Shown piece after piece: positions 4,116 to 20,201 of a stretch of DNA of 22,070 nucleotides (positions within the stretch are counted from its first letter, which is position 1; each line of letters opens with the position of its first letter). Source of the stretch: Octopus sinensis (lineage: Eukaryota); NCBI RefSeq assembly GCF_006345805.1, contig NW_021823572.1:1-22070 (forward strand). The letters run 5' to 3'. The position numbers and the translations under genes were made by a program. Below the pieces are notes generated by a model. The model saw only the letters and a list, made by a program, of their open reading frames with translations, searched no databases and was not told the DNA's origin.

Positions 4116-4226
<111 letters not shown>

Positions 4227-4566
4227 GCGCCTGTGTATGTGAGTGTGTGTGTGTGTTAGGTGCGCGAGGTGTAGTACCTCTAAGCTGGCTACGACTACCT
4301 GGCTAGCTTAGTTTGGCAATGAAGTTAGTTGAGATGTCACCTTCGCCAAACTAGCTGACTTCTTTGGTAGCGGATTGTCTGCTTGCTAACTAACTTCGTT
4401 TGGAGACTAGGTCACACACACACACACACACACACACACATGCATCCTGCATCACTTCTTTCATATTCTTATGCACTGAATCGTTGCTTGTCAATGTATA
4501 CATATATATATATTATATATATATATATATCTAGTGTGTGTGTGAATATATGTATGTATCCGGTTT

Positions 4567-4597
<31 letters not shown>

Positions 4598-4621
4598 TAT
4601 ATATTATATATATTATATATT

Positions 4622-4735
4622 GTTTTATTATTTTACTTGTTTCATTCATCTAACGGCGACCATGCTGCAGCACACCTTGAGTTGAACAATGCGACCCTAA
4701 TACTTATTCTATCGGTCACATTACCGAACCGCCAG
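4622..4735 (-). mobile_element. Degenerate SINE 3' fragment
   Basis: gcgaccatgctgcagcac...tacttattctatcggtc...ccgaaccgc is the reverse complement of the 3571-3766 family. Confidence 0.75.
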
Positions 4736-5023
4736 GTGTTTACGTCTTCCATGTAAAAACTGTAACACATGCTCACATATACAAACACACACGCACACGC
4801 CCAGATACACACACACACACATACACACATACACACAAATATACATGAATATATATATAGATATATATATATATGCGTGTGTGGGTGTGTGGTGTATTTA
4901 TAAATATATATATATATATAATATATATATATATAAATATATATATATATGCAAAAGCAATACATTAATATTTCAATATATGTTGCACATTATGTATACA
5001 AATGTATTTAAATATATAGATGT

Positions 5024-5068
<45 letters not shown>

Positions 5069-5759
5069 CACACACATAGGTATGCATGTATAAGGTCTAT
5101 CTGATATTTATATATGCGTATATATGTATGTATACGTACATATATATATATATATATTATATGCACATATACATCATTTAAAGCCGAGCAGGCTAAGCAA
5201 CACTCCCTTCACGCACTCATGCGTATAATATGTATATATATATATATATATATACAGATGCACAGGCGACACACATGTGTGTATATGTCTATATATGCAT
5301 ATGCATATGTGTGTGTGTATGTATGTGTATGTGTGTGTATGTGTAACGTCGTGCACGCGTGCACCTGTGAATGTTCATCCAATATGTGGACATATGTGTA
5401 TGCTTGCCTTATGTGTGTGTTTATGTGTGAGTGCGTGTTTGTAGCTACGTGCGAGGTAAGAGTAAATTTGTCCTCTGTCACATGTTCTCCGCGATATTTG
5501 TGTATGGTGGCAATGCATGCATTGAACAAATGCACATCCTACTTATGCAGGCTACTTCTAATGCAGCATGCATCGAAGTATGCACACACTTGTGCATCCA
5601 CGCCCACATACACATTTCCTCTTACTATTCCTCTCCATCCTTTCACCTTGTCTCCCCTTCCTCTCACTCACACTCAACCTCTCTCTTCAAGTCTCGTCTT
5701 TGACATAACTATATCTATCTATCTCTCTAGCAATCTATCTGTATGTCAGTCTTTTTTTA

Positions 5760-5829
<70 letters not shown>

Positions 5830-5842
5830 CTATCTATCTATC

Positions 5843-5930
<88 letters not shown>

Positions 5931-5967
5931 TTATCTATCTATCTATCTACCTACCTACCTAACTATC
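5760..5967. repeat. (TATC)n array, 5' flank of the Tx1-like LINE
   Basis: TATC run with TACC variants abutting the LINE. Confidence 0.95.
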
Positions 5968-8900
5968 ACCCGAATGCGCCAATGTGGACATGGAGCAACC
6001 GCATCGGGTCGTCGAGATCGTATCTAGATAGGATACTGCGTAGGACAGTAGATAGAGATAGCATAGGATGTCCACAATTCCACATAGTCAGCTACACGGA
6101 TCACAAACTTGTGACATGTACGCTAGACTTAGGTAAGACACTTAGGCAGGGTCCCGGATACTGGAAACTAAACGCGTCTTTCCCATCGAGACAGGTTTTC
6201 AGAGACCGGATTAGCACACTAGTAAGAGAGGGCTTTGACGGAGCCATCATTCAACAACAATGGTGGTTTGTCCTCAAGAGGCAGTAAAAGCAGAAGCGAT
6301 TAGGGTACAGCAAAGCACTAGCCATAGATAGAAATAGAGTAGAGGGTGAGCTAGTTAAGAAGCTAGAAGAGGCAATTAGAAGCGGCATCGCATCCGACGT
6401 TTTGGCGGCAAGGTTGGCCCTCGACCAACACTTCAACGCCAAACACGAAGGGTGTGCTGTCAGAGCTAGGATGCGTGCTCTAAGGAACGAAGGTGTTGGA
6501 GCCGCAAGAGAGGCCCGTGTGGCAGAGGCGCAACAGGGCAACGAAGCCACCATTCGGTCTCTGGTAGATGAGCAGGAGCGCGAATTGATCGAGCCAAGTA
6601 AAATGTGTGAGGCCCTTTAACAGCATTTTTCCCGACTGTTCGGGACGAGTGGTTGGCAAGAACGTAGGGTGGACTTCAGTGCCTACCTACACAGCCTACC
6701 ACGACTCTCGACAAGAGAGGCAGGATGCTGCAAAGGTGCCATCACGACGGCGGAAGTGCAGGACGAGTTGGCAGAATGCTCGAGGGACAAATCACCGGGT
6801 TTGGATGGTCTACCCTACGAGCTTTACAATTGTATGCCAGACTGGTTTGGAGATGTCTTGGCAGCGGTGTACTGCAACTGGCAACAAAACGGGAGCATTC
6901 CTGGTTTTGTGAGCCGAGGAGCCGTAATACTGCTGAAGAAAGATCTAAACAAGGGAAATGTAATAGATAACTTTAGGCCCATCACTCTGCTTAATGCAGA
7001 CTTGAAAATTTTGGCGCTTGTCATCGAGAAACTGGTCGACAAGGCGCAAACATGCACCGTGCCGGGCCGGACCATCCATGACAACCTCCACCTGATGCGC
7101 TACATCATAGATAGGGTAGTTAACGAACCTGGCATAGGTGGGGTGCTTATCAATTTGGATCAATCGAAAGCTTTCGATAGGGTGGACCATCGATACTTGG
7201 AGGCAGTCCTCAGAGCGGCTGGCTTCGGTCCCGTCTTCAGCGGCTGGATAGCCGCTTTGTACAGAGGCATCCGTTCGGTAATTCGCGTAAATGGACATCT
7301 ATCGAGACCTTTCGACATCGCACGTTCGGTCCGTCAGGGATGCCTCCTCTCGTCGCTTCTATACGTATTGACTCTCGAGCCATTATTGCGGAAGCTGGCA
7401 ACATTGAGGGGTATCCCGCGAGAACTGGGATGCGGGACGAGAATGTCTGCATACGCGGACGACGTCACCGTCATAGTGTCTAGCCACGAGCACATCGAGC
7501 AGGTCGGCGAGACACTGAAAAACTACGAAGCGGTGACAGGAGCGAAAATCAAACGGAAAAGTCAGTGGGTTTGCGACTAGGCACCTGGAGAAGCAAGCCC
7601 ATGCCGTCCACCAGCGCCTCCGTCGTGGGACGCTGGACCGACGGCCCGGTCGAGTTGCTCGGGGTCTGGTTCGGTCCGGACCTCCAAGTGGAGAAGAACT
7701 GGAACGAGATAACGAGTAGGGTGGTCACTCTCGCCCGGCAATGGGCCGAGAGGAAACTGTCCCTAAAAGGTCGAGCGGAGGTGGTGAACACGTACATCGC
7801 GTCCGTCATCTACTACCGCCTGACCGTCGTACTTTGTCCCGACCCTACCATCACCAAACTAGAACGCATTCTCTTTCACTTCTTGTGGAAAGGATGCGTC
7901 CCGATGGTCAGGCAATCCATTTGCTGTCAACACCCGTTAAAAGGAGGACTGGGCATGCCGTGGTTGATGATGCGCAGACACGCGCTGAGACTGCGACATC
8001 TCAGGCTCTTCGTAGACGACGGTGAACAGGTGTGGTCACCGTTTGTGAGGCACGCTTTCCCGCAGCTCGTCTCCATGACCGAACTGCAGTCGTGGATCAA
8101 AAAGAGGCCGAGGAAGGGCGAATGGCACCTCGAGTGTCGCGTTGCTCTCAAGCAACTCTGTCGTCCTGGGTCGACCTTGAATGACTGCATCACAACCAAA
8201 GCATTCTATAGGGGATTAATGGAGGGGAGGCACGACGACGAGCTCGGGGCGAACCTGGACGTCGACGAGGAATACCTGATCCGCCTGTTCTGGACGACTT
8301 TCGGTCCAGGGCCCATGGACAACTTCCAGAGATCCCTGGCCTGACAGTGCTACCGAGAAGCGCTACCCATTAAGCTCTACAGACACGGCTCGAGAAACAC
8401 GGGGCCGACCTGCCCGAGATGCGGTCAGAGCGACGAAACCGTTCTGCACGCCTCGTGCAGTGTCCAACAGTAAACGACCTTTGGGCTTATTTCGAACAAC
8501 TGCTGTCACGTGTGGGACGAGTCGGTTTATCAGCTGAGTCTATCGTCAATATTGTGACGCCTCCTTCCTTCAAACGGGAAGGAAGAGCTATTTTCATCAT
8601 CCTTGTGGCTATGGCAAAGAAATGTATCTGGTGGACGCGTCTGAAAGGATTGGAGACAAACACTTTCCTCTCTGGTCAATCTCTCATCAACTTCTTCAAG
8701 TACCACTTGAAAAGGAAAGTGAGAGTAGAGAGGCAAGTTTTGTCTAGCGAATGTTTTAAAAAAAGATGGGTGAATGTAGCAAGGATGGCACGTATGAATG
8801 ACGAAGCCACCTTGAGCATGATCCTATGAACCCAGAAATTGAAAACAGAGGGTTACCCACTTGCAAACAAATGTGGTAACATATAACAATATTGACGAAG

Positions 8901-9233
8901 GTTACCGTGGTCTTTTTCGTAGGCTTTTCTTCCCACGGATAAACCTTACTTGCTTTCCCTTTTACATCATACATCATGACACTGTGATACACGATCCCTA
9001 TTGATCGTTTTTTTCCTCTCCCCCTTTTTTCCTCTTTTTTCTTCCTCTATTTTTCTTTTCTTTTTTTTTCTTTTTCACCCTTTTACGATCCCTTTTGATC
9101 GAAAACCTACGCCACATTTTTTCGTTTCTTCTGTTTTTTTTGTTTTTTTTGTTTTCTTTCATCCCACAAAAGAAAATCTCTACCTTGTAATTTGTCCCAT
9201 CTGTGTGCAGCCCTGTGTGGCCAATAAAGAAAC

Positions 9234-10215: not shown

Positions 10216-10405
10216 TATACAATTATAAAGAAGGGCAAAATAAAAACATTTCTATGCCAATATGCTGAGAAATAGACTTTTAAATCGTCAATCACCACAT
10301 ACAATATACATCACTGTTGTATGTGGTGACCGACGATTTAAAAGTCTATTTCTCAGCATATTGGCATAGAAAAAATTTTCTTTTGCCTTTATTTACAATT
10401 GTATA
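10216..10405. repeat. Long inverted repeat (89-bp arms, 12-nt loop)
   Basis: 10216-10304 pairs with 10317-10405; the inner arms are nearly perfect (tttctatgccaatatgctgagaaatagacttttaaatcgtc and its reverse complement). Confidence 0.95.
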
Positions 10406-11083: not shown

Positions 11084-11152
11084 GAACACAGAAAGAAACA
11101 AGGAGAGAAAAAATGTGTGTAGTGGCTACCGATCTAAGTGTGAGTGTATATA

Positions 11153-11204
<52 letters not shown>

Positions 11205-11377
11205 ATAATAAATATTAGGGAATGAATCCAAAATTACAGGGAAAAATCAGATTTAGGGTTAAATCCAATTTATAGTAAAATATTATATAATATAATTCGA
11301 GACAAAACCACTATTTTAAAACCAAACAAGGAAAGACTTAATCAATACATAAAATTTTATATAAATTAAATAAACCG

Positions 11378-11420
11378 CCACTACAAATGTTTCATGTCTG
11401 CTCCGACAATCTTCAGGTGG
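11378..11420 (-). ncRNA. Type I hammerhead motif, left palindrome arm
   Basis: Exact reverse complement of 11475-11517. Confidence 0.8.
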
Positions 11421-11474
11421 ATTTTCGATCTTCTAATCAGTATCAAATTTGATACTGATTAGAAGATCGAAAAT

Positions 11475-11517
11475 CCACCTGAAGATTGTCGGAGCAGACA
11501 TGAAACATTTGTAGTGG
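11475..11517 (+). ncRNA. Type I hammerhead motif, right palindrome arm
   Basis: ccac CTGAAGA t tgtc ggagca gaca t GAAA CATTTG TA gtgg. Canonical core; stem I ccac/gtgg; stem II tgtc/gaca; short stem III; predicted cleavage after A11513. Confidence 0.82.
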
Positions 11518-12587
11518 CGGTTTATTTAATTTATATTAAAATTTTATGTATTGATTAAGTCTTTCCTTGTTTGGTTTTAAAATAGTGGTTTTGTCTCGAA
11601 TTATATTATATATATATATATATATATGTATGCATGTATATGCAAATGTTTGCGGATGCAGTGCATGCGAATGTATATATGTATATGGCTGTGTGCGGGT
11701 GTGTGTGTGTATATGTATGTTGGTGTAGTTTTCCCATGCTTGTTTATTAGTGAAGGTTTGAGTGGGAACACAGTCGAAATTGTGGTTATCTGGAAGGTTT
11801 AATAGCACGATAAATGTTTACGAAATATGCGGTGTAATTTTTAATTATGTATCTTATGCTAATAACGTACTTCGACTGGGTATGGGTGTCTGTTTGCATG
11901 CATGTATATATATTTATGGATATATGTGAGTAGTTATGTATGCAAACATATATGTGTGTATGTAAGCTTGTATTTCCTGTATTGTGATTTATCCATGTAT
12001 ATATGTGTAAGCGCACATATACGTGTGTACATATGTAAGTATTTCTTAACAAACCAACCGTAACGAAGACAATTGAAATTCAAATGTGCCGGCCAATCGT
12101 ATTGGGCATTCGATCTTTAACTATCTCTGAACTTAATACTTTACACATATCACAGCCAAAATGATGGCTGGCACCCGTGTATACGCTTGTGCATCTGTGA
12201 AATTTGCTATGATGTAAATTAATGTTTTTCATTTTTTATTTTATACGTATTTGCCGATCTATAATGCTTTGCATGGTACTGTATTATTGTTGTTGTTATT
12301 TTTACTATTATGTTGCTAACCGCGTGATGCATATATTGTCTTGCTGGTATTAATGTTATTAATAATAATAATAATAATGATATTAGCAGCAATAATGGCA
12401 ATGGTAATAGTAATGATGGTAATATTAATGGCATTTTGTGACTTAATATAATGAACTCTTGACTTTGTAAATCTGCATTTGAATATAGATATATGTATGT
12501 TTGTATATTGTAATATTCTAATATATTGTTTTGACCAACTGTAACCTTGAATATAGAACATATGTATGTATATTGCTGTATATTATT

Positions 12588-13400: not shown

Positions 13401-13840
13401 GGAGTATGGGCATATGCACTCATATGTATGTGTATATTATATATTATGTACCCACCTTGTATGGGTGTACCTCCTCTGATATTCATATTTAATTTAGTTT
13501 GTACTTCATAATTTCTGAAGAGGCCTTGGGATATTTTTGTAAGTGTCTCATTTATAACCACATATTAACTTATCACACATGGCTAATATGAGCATAATGA
13601 GATACCCATATCCGCATGGCTGAAACAGCTGTAAGATGTAGTTTATATTTGTATTTATTTATATTCACTTATACATACTGTACTTATTGTATCATATTAC
13701 TCATTGATGTACATTGTTTTGTTCTATATTATTATGTTTGACCTTAATGTTCATATGTAGTGGTTTAATAAATTATTTGATTGGGTATTATCTGGTAGTT
13801 GATTATTGATTAAGGTGTATTTCTCCATTTTCTTATTTTG
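13401..13840 (+). mobile_element. (TA)n-flanked non-coding element carrying a hammerhead
   Basis: TA arrays on both sides; hammerhead at 13511-13637; the terminal 127 bp are repeated at 16857-16983. Confidence 0.7.
13511..13637 (+). ncRNA. Type I hammerhead motif with an extended stem II of about 100 nt
   Basis: attt CTGAAGA ggcc...ggct GAAA CAGCTG TA agat. Nested stem II pairings: ggatat/atatcc, gtgtctcatt/aatgagatac, catatta/taatatg. Stem III is the palindrome ACAGCTGT. Confidence 0.8.

Positions 13841-14543: not shown

Positions 14544-14572
<29 letters not shown>
14508..14572. repeat. (CATA)n microsatellite
   Basis: Direct reading. Confidence 0.96.
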
Positions 14573-14575
<3 letters not shown>

Positions 14576-14880
14576 CCTTGAATTATTGGGGGTCTGGGAT
14601 ATGTAACATACTGCCTAAATACCAATCTTGAGAAATTAGGCTTCTCAAAACCAGAAAGGGGAAAGCTGATTCGAAGGTACACATCCAATCTATCACTGGA
14701 ACTGTAAAAATCTGTAGAACTTTCCAGCAGTTTGCCATATAAAGATATATGAGCATGTCTAGATATGCAACTATATGTGTGAGAATACATACATAAAGCA
14801 AAACATATAAATCTGCACGTACATTCCGACATCCATCCATCCATCCATCCATCCATCCATCCATCCATCCATCCATCCAT
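14572..14880 (+). mobile_element. Short 3' fragment of an R4/Dong-like retrotransposon with a (CATC)n tail
   Basis: Highly similar to the reverse complement of 18802-19065; encodes [31 protein letters not shown]; (ATCC)n at 14831-14880. Confidence 0.88.
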
Positions 14881-14899
14881 ACATACATATATACATGCA

Positions 14900-15787: not shown

Positions 15788-15965
15788 GGACAACAAACGT
15801 TAAGGCAAGACAAACATTTCAAGTCATATTCGTTATTATTATTAGAAAAATTTAAACTCTTACAGCTGTTTCTGGGATATCCCAAAATATGGGATATTCA
15901 GTCATCAGAGACAAGCGTGAAGGGAATAGGTTAAGGAAACGATGAATAAAGGACTGGAGGAAAGG
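15788..15965 (-). mobile_element. Hammerhead-bearing short repeat, same family as 17151-17444
   Basis: gttaaa.aggacaacaaacgt..aggcaag...tcaagtcatat...ttacagctgtttct.ggatatccca is shared with 17155-17290. Confidence 0.8.
15857..15912 (-). ncRNA. Type I hammerhead motif
   Basis: Minus strand: gtct CTGATGA c tgaatatccca tattt tgggatatccc a GAAA CAGCTG TA agag. Confidence 0.78.
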
Positions 15966-17020: not shown

Positions 17021-17233
17021 GTTTAGCTCACAGGTGATCTAAACGACTAGGTTCGCTAGGTAAGTGCTGTGACGGACTACAAAGGCTCTTAGGTTACAGC
17101 CGAGGTGATAGTTATGAAGCCATTGCAGATTTCCGATACAGCGGATATAGAATTGTTAAAGAGGACAACAAACGTCAAAGCAAGGCGACCATCTCAAGTC
17201 ATATACTTTATTATTATTGGAAAAAAATTCAAA

Positions 17234-17289
17234 GTCTTACAGCTGTTTCTAGGATATCCCAGAGAATGGGATATTCCGTCATCAGAGAC
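17234..17289 (-). ncRNA. Type I hammerhead motif
   Basis: Minus strand: gtct CTGATGA c ggaatatccca ttctc tgggatatcct a GAAA CAGCTG TA agac. Stem I is gtct/agac, the core is canonical, and stem III is palindromic. Confidence 0.83.
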
Positions 17290-17317
17290 CAGAGACAAAT
17301 AGGGAATATGAGAAGGG

Positions 17318-17365
17318 TGACGGAATATCTCATATTCTGGGATATTCCAGAAATATCTGTAAGAC
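17318..17365 (+). ncRNA. 5'-truncated, mutated hammerhead remnant on the right arm of the inverted repeat
   Basis: TGA c ggaatatctca tattc tgggatattcc a GAAA TATCTG TA agac; lacks CTGA and the 5' strand of stem I. Confidence 0.65.
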
Positions 17366-17610
17366 TTTGAATTTTTTCCAATAATAATAATGTATATGAC
17401 TTGAGATGGTCGCCTTGCCTTGACGCTTGTCCTCTTTAACAATTATGTGTGTGTGTATATGTATGTATATATATACAAGTGTAAACAAGAGATACAGAGA
17501 AAGGCAGAAACAAGGAAAATGCCACTTATATTTGAACACTATACAAATATTCTTTTAAAAAAACATTTCTTTTAATTTTTCTAAATTTATATTATTAATT
17601 TAATCGTTTA

Positions 17611-18801: not shown

Positions 18802-20201
18802 GTCGGAATGTATGTGCAGATTTATATGTTTTGCTTTATGTATGTATTCTCAGACATATAGTTGCATATCTAGACATGCTCATATATCTTTATATGGCAA
18901 ACTGCTGGAAAGTTCTACAGATTTTTATAGTTCTATTGATGGATTGGATCTGTATGTAGTCTTCGAATTAGCTTTCTCCTTTCTGGTTTTGAGAAGCCTA
19001 ATTTCTCAAGTTTGGTATTTGGAGAGTGTGTTACATATCCCAGAGCCCCAATAATTGCATGTATAAACCTGAACTTGTAATCTGGATAGAGTAACTGCAG
19101 ATTTCTCAATAGTTCAGCATAGGTGTTCCCTTTTTCACTGATCTTCAGCTTTATGTTAACATGTGCTGGGCAGCTAATTTCCACAACTGTGCACAGTTTC
19201 TCTTCTCTATCCCAAATCATTATATCAGGCATGTTGTGCTTACATTTTATTTTGGTCTTCACTGGGACATTCCACCAGTATTCCTTTTTGTTATGGGTGG
19301 TTATGGCTTTTATCATATTGTGGGTCTTTATTTCTTTGTTCTCGGGTTTATCCTTCCGACGGATTTCATTATAGCATGTCCTAGCTACAACATCATGTTT
19401 CATCGGTAGATAATACCGTGATGACATTTTCGGACAACTGCTTAAGATGTGGGTGATATCTTCAGTGTGAACTCCAGAAAGTTTGCATCAGTTGTCACAT
19501 TTTACTCCTTTTCCTGCATCTCTATCGCTTTTGCGCATCAGGTATTTGTTTGATATTTTCCTGTCCCTGGATTGCAAATATACCCTTCAAAGTTGAGGTA
19601 GTAATCCAGCTATTGGTCGATGATAAACTGCTTTGATGACCAATGTTACTATCATCTCGGAGCTTTCTACTAATATATCCATGCATAGTCTTCTGCTCAT
19701 ACAAGCTCATCCTTTCATCTGATGATACGTTGCGGTAGAGTCGTGCGACTTCTTTGGGCATGTATTCTAGGTTATCAAACGAGGAATGTTGCTCAAGGAG
19801 CTGCCTTCCATGTCTTATGATGTTATCAGCCTCATATATGCAAAGTTGGTTAAGAGATGGACTTCGATACTTAGTGGTTAAAAGACTTTGCCGAAGGGAT
19901 ATGATACGACATTCAGAGGCATTTTGGATCTATGTTAAGTCTCTTCCTCCTTGTTTTCGTTTTAGATAAATGCGGTCTACGTAACTGTTTATGTGGAAAT
20001 TACGTGTGCTTGTTAGTATTTTCCGGGTTTTCACACCAATAGCTTATATCTCATCAAGCGTTCAATCAAGCAGCCCAAATATTGGTATGAGCACTGGCAC
20101 TGCAAGCACATTGTGGGCCACTGTTTTATTGAATGCAGAGAATTCTGATGACCTAATTTTCTTTATTTGGCTTTAATATTCTTTAGTGACGCGTGCTTTG
20201 C
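18802..20201 (-). mobile_element. 5'-truncated, decayed R4/Dong-like RLE non-LTR retrotransposon
   Basis: Post-RT region NKTVAHNVLAVPVL..FGLLD, KTRKILT...FH....VDRIYLKRKQGGR; CCHC remnant C....EDITHILSSCP; KHDVVA; RLE domain PDIMIWD...VVEISCP...EK...Y..L..IIGALG. Multiple stops and frameshifts. Confidence 0.9.

What the first reader, a model, noticed from the sequence alone, without database searches (positions are those of the whole stretch)
11284..11612. Loop-less palindrome of about 330 bp carrying a canonical-core hammerhead on each arm
Seen in sequence: two arms of about 164 bp joined with no spacer at 11447/11448, differing by one base, set between (TA)n arrays. Each arm encodes an outward-reading hammerhead. 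A transcript from either strand would contain one sense ribozyme plus its antisense, so long dsRNA folding would compete with ribozyme folding. Established: PLE insertions often carry an inverted, truncated terminal copy, and long perfect palindromes are unstable. Inference: a very recent fold-back or self-primed second-strand insertion product, and possibly a source of siRNA or ADAR substrate.
Basis: partly seen in the sequence, partly recalled or inferred. Interest (0 to 1): 0.8.

Follow-up and report, generated by a model that had tools for sequence, protein, structure and literature searches.

The report
Twin-primed Penelope retrotransposon palindrome
This mirror-image stretch is one of hundreds of similar head-to-head insertions of a Penelope-like jumping gene; its two halves lack the parent's intron and end at two different fixed points, which likely means the element's enzyme copies a single spliced RNA twice, once from each cut DNA end, a candidate answer to the open question of how these elements insert.

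Summary
The palindrome and both hammerheads are real, but the insertion is larger and asymmetric: about 11201-11612, with an ~80-bp 'tail' on the left arm only. It belongs to a young family (1464 exact hits of one arm word) whose parent is a Hydra-type Penelope-like element (PLE) with RT and GIY-YIG motifs and a ~1.29-kb GT-AG intron in its leader. Both window arms are the spliced form. Across 97 junction-selected and 50 unbiased head-to-head pairs, one arm always ends at site A and the other at site B. Spliced never paired with unspliced (0 of 53), subfamily variants agree between arms, either arm can be truncated, and at 7 loci the arms do not overlap. That excludes simple fold-back. It best fits two reverse transcriptions of one sense, spliced, probably capped RNA, primed from both cut target strands and joined at a natural micro-palindrome (inferred). 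Head-to-head PLE copies with tail and hammerhead are known; this mechanism was not found in my searches and runs against the published antisense self-priming idea. siRNA, ADAR editing, ribozyme activity and reads spanning this one locus are untested.

The parts
11147..11201 (.). Left (TA)n array, the insertion target
   Evidence: 156 of 157 tail ends in held loci run into at least (TA)4
11284..11429 (-). Left arm, exon 2 of the PLE leader; with the tail it matches the parent copy L071 at 228 aligned letters, 0 mismatches, 4 one-base gaps
11378..11420 (-). Type I minimal hammerhead, left arm; predicted cut between 11382 and 11381
11430..11447 (-). Last 18 nt of exon 1, joined to exon 2 at 11430|11429 (intron absent)
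11445..11450 (.). Centre: self-complementary AAATTT, part of a natural near-palindrome in exon 1 where the two copies are joined
11448..11465 (+). Last 18 nt of exon 1, joined to exon 2 at 11465|11466 (intron absent)
11466..11612 (+). Right arm, exon 2, ending at site A without tail
11475..11517 (+). Type I minimal hammerhead: stem I 4 bp, full core, U.U at the base of a 4-bp stem II, short stem III; predicted cut between 11513 and 11514
   Evidence: same layout as Hydra-clade hammerheads
11609..11628 (.). Right (TA)n array, merging with end site A
   Evidence: 120 of 124 A ends run into at least (TA)4

Best explanation
The stretch 11201-11612 is a leader-only, head-to-head insertion of a Hydra-type Penelope-like retrotransposon into a (TA)n array, with both halves lacking the parent's intron, and it was likely made by twin priming: two reverse transcriptions of one spliced sense RNA. 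Shown: parent ORF and intron, spliced arms, A+B asymmetry, agreement between arms, (TA)n targets. Inferred steps: the RT-endonuclease (a predicted dimer in a relative) cuts both strands of (TA)n; one DNA end primes at site A, the other at site B, 80 nt further 3'; both copy towards the RNA 5' end, the B enzyme displacing the A copy or stopping short of it; the two cDNA 3' ends anneal at a self-complementary word in exon 1, prime on each other and are ligated. Priming in the spliced 5' leader gives short palindromes like this one; priming in the downstream, unspliced repeat gives long intron-keeping copies. The hammerheads are passengers: here the RNA was copied uncut.
For: Parent found with exon 1, GT-AG intron (1249-1314 bp in 28 of 30 rows, many loci listed twice), exon 2, hammerhead, tail, ORF. 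277 exact spliced-junction arms versus 72 unspliced-acceptor arms, controls 0. A+B in 96 of 97 junction-selected pairs and 49 of 50 unbiased pairs (45 independent); both exceptions are A+B with a later deletion or insertion. Mixed spliced/unspliced pairs 0 of 53 classified, although both forms occur in the same subfamilies. Seven subfamily sites: 81 both arms, 415 neither, 3 discordant. L172 has a one-off junction on both arms. Seven loci with non-overlapping arms (L103, L134, L159, L165, L205, L223, L232). Centre letter 7 A, 10 T, 4 none. Of 12 spliced arms that start at the initiator-like A, 8 have an extra G, 4 of them not explained by the partner arm. In vitro a related PLE cuts and extends both strands and starts at two internal sites that bound the tail (PMC11167929).
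Against: No biochemical test; all mechanism steps are read from end products. 78 rare variants lie on one arm only against 24 on both; later mutation or assembly error would give this, but so would two templates. The extra-G signal is small (4 clear cases; 4 arms have A or T). One spliced arm (L082) carries sequence from upstream of the presumed start. The related PLE showed no difference in start site between strands in vitro and no homology between target and start site, whereas sites A and B here are TA-like. About a third of arms in the unbiased sample are single (24 single hits, some only fragments). Gene conversion between arms or later central deletion could mimic part of the concordance. 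The 97-pair set was chosen by junction words and holds a few duplicated loci.
Confidence: 0.7

Rival explanations
1. Two separate RNA molecules, one per subunit of an asymmetric dimer and both from the same source gene, are copied from sites A and B and joined head to head.
For: Explains non-overlapping arms, independent truncation and shared subfamily variants through cis preference; one-arm-only rare variants (78).
Against: Needs a separate rule for strict A+B; does not readily explain 0 of 53 mixed isoform pairs, the shared one-off junction in L172, or both arms stopping on the same side of the hammerhead (35 of 45, Fisher p 2.8e-4, table tallied by hand and tested).
Confidence: 0.15
2. Fold-back: one cDNA (or an antisense RNA, as proposed for rotifer Penelopes) self-primes at the micro-palindrome and copies itself to make the second arm.
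For: Arms share variants and isoform; centre lies on a natural near-palindrome; proposed in PMC3846280.
Against: Seven loci with non-overlapping arms; tailed arm often the shorter; natural centre letter goes with the tail-less arm in 10 of 17; an antisense template cannot be spliced at sense GT-AG sites or carry a 5' G at the sense start.
Confidence: 0.06
3. The short palindromes spread as their own non-autonomous family: a read-through RNA of one palindromic copy is copied whole.
For: The 36-37-nt centre class recurs at many loci with near-identical arms.
Against: Centres are very diverse and often unique; spliced palindromes occur in every subfamily including an older one at ~89% identity; the recurrent class is explained by the natural micro-palindrome.
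Confidence: 0.06
4. The window's palindrome is a fold-back library or assembly artefact.
For: The window is a whole small unplaced contig of 22,070 bp; no laid record spans the locus with its flanks.
Against: An artefact would mirror flanks and tail; here the flanks differ and the arms end at the family's A and B sites. The same no-spacer centre occurs at other loci (L008, L015, L116), and a 68-nt short-read contig of run X2 crosses such a centre (21 letters on its short side, below the tool's 31-letter bar, and not locus-specific).
Confidence: 0.03

Closest known systems
Hydra clade of C-terminal-endonuclease Penelope-like elements (Craig et al. 2021, PMC8557442; sections 11 and 12, passages, part 2 of the supplement read)
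   Same: DKT, RWK-like, CxCX5C linker, CxxC and CxH motifs around the conserved E and N, (TA)n targets, hammerhead with an extra U on both sides of stem II; Penelope-13_HM is listed with an inverted truncated copy at its 5' end.
   Different: Hammerhead letters differ from all listed families, including the listed octopus family Hydra-1_Obim; element much longer than the usual <3 kb because of a 1.29-kb leader intron, repeats and an Asn-rich insert; tail ~80 bp rather than 30-40 bp.
PLE insertion unit with inverted pseudo-LTR, junction palindrome and one-sided tail (Arkhipova et al. 2013, PMC3846280, passages read; Craig 2021 Fig. 2 legend)
   Same: Head-to-head copies, palindromic junction, tail on one end, initiator-like TCACT word, Asn-rich ORF insert.
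   Different: Here most junction-bearing copies are spliced and hold no ORF; that paper explains the junction by self-priming on an antisense template with intron retention, which these data do not fit.
Poseidon of Anolis, in vitro (Frangieh et al. 2024, PMC11167929; parts 1-2 of 4 read, covering results, plus word search)
   Same: Both target strands cut and extended, AT-rich target, two internal start sites bounding the tail, hammerhead cleavage not needed, predicted dimer.
   Different: Different clade; start sites lie in the ORF there and upstream of it here; the paper does not discuss inverted or head-to-head products.
LINE-1 twin priming (passages in PMC11702581)
   Same: Second target end primes internally on the same RNA, giving an inverted 5' part joined by microhomology.
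   Different: In L1 the two copies abut with 1-10 bp lost or doubled and the second site is variable; here both sites are fixed and the copies usually overlap by up to 164 bp, giving a palindrome.
Minimal hammerheads of metazoan PLEs and non-LTR retrozymes (PMC4209133, parts 1-2 of 4 read; bioRxiv 10.64898/2026.07.22.740005, part 1 of 5 read)
   Same: Type I motif, short stem I, weak near-palindromic stem III; dual motifs 100-700 bp apart on opposite strands were already noted in Schistosoma.
   Different: No G10.1-C11.1 pair; not a head-to-tail array, so not a retrozyme.

Membership tests
Endonuclease-bearing Penelope-like elements | Parent ORF with RT followed by C-terminal GIY-YIG endonuclease | tested here: met
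   Motifs read in L071; full-length relatives P0003 (44%, E 3e-94) and P0004 (33%, E 3e-60), P0004 with a sub-threshold Pfam GIY-YIG match (E 0.0011), endonuclease part matching P0003 at E 6e-23. Pfam gave no RT or GIY-YIG hit on the parent pieces themselves.
Endonuclease-bearing Penelope-like elements | Pseudo-LTR repeated before and after the ORF | tested here: met
   L071 holds exon 2, hammerhead and tail both upstream (7557-7322) and downstream (1376-1148) of the ORF.
Endonuclease-bearing Penelope-like elements | Inverted 5'-truncated copy and one-sided tail | tested here: met
   tail ~80 bp, longer than the published 30-40 bp.
Endonuclease-bearing Penelope-like elements | Hammerhead in the pseudo-LTR | tested here: met
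   core unchanged in all common variants; changes fall in loop II, loop III, N7 and the H17 letter. No compensatory stem changes seen.
Endonuclease-bearing Penelope-like elements | Spliceosomal intron in the 5' leader | tested here: met
   GT-AG, 1291 bp in L071; exact loss in 277 arms.
Hydra clade | DKT, RWK, CxCX5C, CxxC/CxH motifs | tested here: met
   By eye against section 11 of PMC8557442; the RWK motif reads KWK here.
Hydra clade | (TA)n insertion preference | tested here: met
   120 of 124 A ends and 156 of 157 B ends.
Hydra clade | RT groups with named Hydra families in a tree | not tested
Hydra clade | Length under 3 kb | tested here: not met
   About 6.2 kb from one acceptor to the next in L071; described as general, not defining.
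Canonical type I hammerhead | G10.1-C11.1 pair and stable monomer fold | tested here: not met
   U.U at that place; no Rfam match; fold no better than shuffles.
Canonical type I hammerhead | Self-cleavage | not testable with these tools
   Needs an in vitro assay.
Non-LTR retrozyme | Head-to-tail tandem units each with a hammerhead | tested here: not met
   Units are head-to-head.
MITE or microRNA hairpin | Fixed symmetric terminal inverted repeats, or an Rfam match at gathering score | tested here: not met
   Ends are asymmetric and centres variable; best Rfam hit MIR7504, 82 bits against 83, is driven by the hairpin.

The most novel reading that the evidence does not exclude
Penelope-like elements insert by obligate twin priming on one RNA: an RT-endonuclease dimer starts two cDNAs at two fixed sites, which explains in one step the inverted pseudo-LTR, the one-sided tail and intron retention (the 5' leader is spliced and gives short palindromes, the downstream repeat is unspliced and gives the long copies). 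The hammerhead acts as a switch on that RNA: both arms either read through it or both stop about 7 nt 3' of its cut site, the first genomic trace of a role for the PLE ribozyme in vivo.
Probability: 0.4. Interest if true: 0.8.

Novelty: new variant of a known kind. Interest (0 to 1): 0.55.

Why it matters
How PLEs make inverted repeats, tails and intron-bearing copies is called open in PMC3846280, PMC8557442 and PMC11167929 (passages read). This family carries natural markers (an intron, subfamily variants, two fixed ends, a likely cap G) that let rival models be counted in the genome, and the counts favour one RNA copied twice over antisense self-priming or fold-back. It gives a simple marked-RNA test for the existing in vitro system. 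As a locus the palindrome is ordinary, one of hundreds; such copies will be mis-annotated as MITEs or microRNA hairpins, and those in transcripts could be double-stranded RNA sources (untested).

Tried and rejected
Rfam scan: no hammerhead; microRNA hits are hairpin artefacts. Pfam on parent pieces: nothing useful. Search for sequencing runs: no RNA holder listed on record, all 24 runs are contigs. Laying runs X1, X2, X4, X7 on 11203-12300: no record spans the stretch, depths are summed over the family, RNA status of X7 is a guess, so nothing on expression, editing or an empty allele. Search for a second assembly copy or empty allele of the locus: flanks are repeats, best other matches 93% and 89%. 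Idea that exon 1 is the end of the ORF: rejected, the ORF stops ~2 kb upstream. Idea that arms end at the hammerhead cut: no arm in the unbiased sample starts at exon-2 positions 35-56; the cluster starts at 57, the cut is at 49|50, so cleavage as the cause is not shown. Target-site duplications cannot be read in (TA)n. No covariance model or tree was built. Literature: 10 searches found no paper proposing twin priming for PLEs or spliced leader-only PLE palindromes; most subscription papers are not searched, and supplements of PMC11167929, PMC3846280 and the bioRxiv preprint were not seen and may bear on this. Earlier scan notes: two look-ups blank, one gave similar cases in other genomes.

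Full report
Observation. The window is the whole contig G000:C43 (22,070 bp) of a 2.7-Gb, microsatellite-rich animal genome. The palindrome is centred at 11447|11448, perfect for 89 bp, then offset by one base and paired to 11284/11612. As RNA it folds at -261 kcal/mol, z -43.5. Each arm has a type I hammerhead reading outward; a descriptor scan gave 3 sites in the window and 0-1 in 20 shuffles. Rfam lists no hammerhead and the motif alone folds no better than shuffles. The left arm does not end at (TA)n: it runs on ~80 bp to ~11201.

Family. The right arm gave 1275 first-look candidates in the genome; 40 were scored, with 22 matches identical over 158 nt. An outer-arm word has 1464 exact hits, a word just 3' of the hammerhead cut 436, a word across the cut 357 (reversed controls 0). 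Ends run into (TA)n at 120 of 124 A ends and 156 of 157 B ends of held loci.

Parent. A word extending the centre by 12 nt had 38 hits; 30 were fetched, and many continue into a GT donor instead of exon 2 (output cut in the middle). Larger fetches showed the layout in L071: intron end, exon 2 with hammerhead, tail, ATG at 7270, a broken ORF with RT motifs, an Asn-rich stretch, a CxCX5C linker and a GIY-YIG-type end, then repeats, exon 1, a 1291-bp GT-AG intron, exon 2, tail and (TA)n. Intron length is 1249-1314 bp in 28 of 30 rows, many loci listed twice. Two full-length relatives were found among longer proteins; one has a sub-threshold GIY-YIG match. Motifs, targets and hammerhead form match the Hydra clade of PMC8557442; no tree was made. 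The window's left arm matches the parent's exon 2 and tail at 228 letters with no mismatch and 4 one-base gaps.

Both window arms are spliced. The exon-exon word has 277 exact hits, the acceptor word 72. None of the first 100 listed spliced arms lies within 20 kb of 64 of the 72 acceptor hits (the 8 on small contigs were left out); these 100 arms form 77 loci, 21 with two or more exact arms. In D. virilis Penelope most transcripts are spliced while genomic copies keep the intron (passages of PMC2377424).

Geometry. In loci chosen by junction words, 96 of 97 head-to-head pairs have one arm ending at site A and one at site B. In all loci behind the first 100 of the 1464 outer-word hits (65 loci given), 49 of 50 pairs do, 45 being independent, with 24 single hits. 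The two exceptions are A+B pairs with a later deletion (L097) or insertion (L238). Isoforms: 39 spliced/spliced, 14 scored unspliced/unspliced, 0 mixed; 2 unclassified and 42 with a truncated arm. One of the 14, L172, in fact has exon 1 joined to the last 10 nt of the intron on both arms, seen at no other held locus. Both isoforms occur in the same hammerhead subfamilies. At seven subfamily sites arms agree 496 times and differ 3 times; rare variants are on both arms 24 times (10 in one older locus) and on one arm 78 times. Either arm may be truncated, and at L103, L134, L159, L165, L205, L223 and L232 the B arm holds only tail sequence, sharing nothing with the A arm.

Centre. Exon 1 holds a natural near-palindrome, five-base arms around one A. 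Most full palindromes join there: no spacer in 4 cases (as in the window), and the spacer letter belonging to the tailed arm in 7 and to the tail-less arm in 10 (includes L172 and one duplicated locus, misses loci with tail variants). That balance is what annealing of two cDNA ends with one mismatch predicts (inference). Spliced arms reach at most 33 nt before the donor, except L082. Of 22 arms reaching the initiator-like word, 10 carry on in natural sequence and 12 start at its A: 8 preceded by G (4 not explained by the partner arm), 3 by A, 1 by T. An untemplated G is attributed to copying of the cap in L1 and SVA (passages of PMC3287187). Suggestive only.

Hammerhead. Core letters are unchanged in all common variants and in an older subfamily. 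The window's RNA was copied through the cut site. In the unbiased set, 5' ends cluster in exon 1 and at exon-2 positions 57-80; the cut is at 49|50. Both arms passed the ribozyme in 18 events, both stopped 3' of it in 17, and 10 were discordant (hand tally; Fisher p 2.8e-4; one placement, L198, is uncertain). Some centres at position 57 hold reiterated short AT-rich repeats (L185, L211), like an RT slipping at a block. Cleaved RNA, a folded roadblock or later central deletion could each contribute; this is unresolved.

Mechanism. A relative cuts and extends both strands and starts at two internal sites that bound the tail, without needing hammerhead cleavage (PMC11167929); it does not discuss inverted products. 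Adding the counts above, the simplest model is twin priming on one sense RNA (0.7). Two RNAs from one source (0.15), fold-back or the antisense self-priming of PMC3846280 (0.06), whole-palindrome copying (0.06) and artefact (0.03) fit less well. The PLE identity itself is near certain.

Reads. All runs were contigs and none was on record as RNA. Of four laid, none spans the locus; one X2 contig crosses a centre with a one-letter gap but falls short of the tool's bridging bar and is not locus-specific. No second assembly copy of the locus was found. The case against artefact rests on the family pattern.

Novelty. Head-to-head PLE copies with tail and hammerheads on opposite strands are described, and earlier scan notes report like cases in other genomes (unchecked). 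New here, within 10 literature searches of an incomplete library: a Hydra-type family not among those listed, mass retroposition of the spliced leader, an 80-bp tail, and marker counts that separate the insertion models. Verdict: ordinary locus, new variant of a known kind, useful mechanistic evidence; interest 0.55.

Noticed in passing
window 10246-10372: Second hairpin with ~55-bp arms (-79.9 kcal/mol, z -23.6 for 10256-10375); member of another, older repeat family with many inverted pairs (1873 candidates, 40 scored, best others 75-89%).
   Followed up: partly
window 13511-13630: Hammerhead of another family that passes my descriptor, with a ~95-nt stem II region containing a GTAAGT donor-like word; possibly an intron inside the ribozyme.
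   Followed up: no
window 15790-15930 and 17150-17445: Hammerhead-like motifs of another family on the minus strand (cores at 15908 and 17285), the second with an inverted partial copy beside it, next to (TA)n; seen by eye, did not pass my descriptor.
   Followed up: no
window 5970-9230: Broken LINE between (TATC)n arrays with an RT frame at 6621-7580; L1/Tx1-like by recalled motifs.
   Followed up: no
window 18933-19487 (-) and 14572-14899: Frame with a zinc-knuckle and restriction-like endonuclease motifs next to (TACA)n, and an inverted partial copy; R4/Dong-like by recall.
   Followed up: no
L063 (G000:C905) 4219-6325: Array of head-to-head units of the same family at 581-bp spacing; left out of the pair counts.
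   Followed up: no
L071 5750-5540 and P0003: Long Asn-rich (AAT)n stretch inside the ORF between RT and endonuclease, as described for rotifer Penelopes.
   Followed up: no
L071 4600-1900: The 3' region and the intron of the parent share several long internal repeats, seen by eye.
   Followed up: no
B ends of held loci: Variable numbers of extra TAT units at the tail end and reiterated short repeats at some centres (L185, L211, L034), reminiscent of telomerase-like slippage.
   Followed up: partly
L061 1591-1883: Three tandem copies of the tail segment alone.
   Followed up: no
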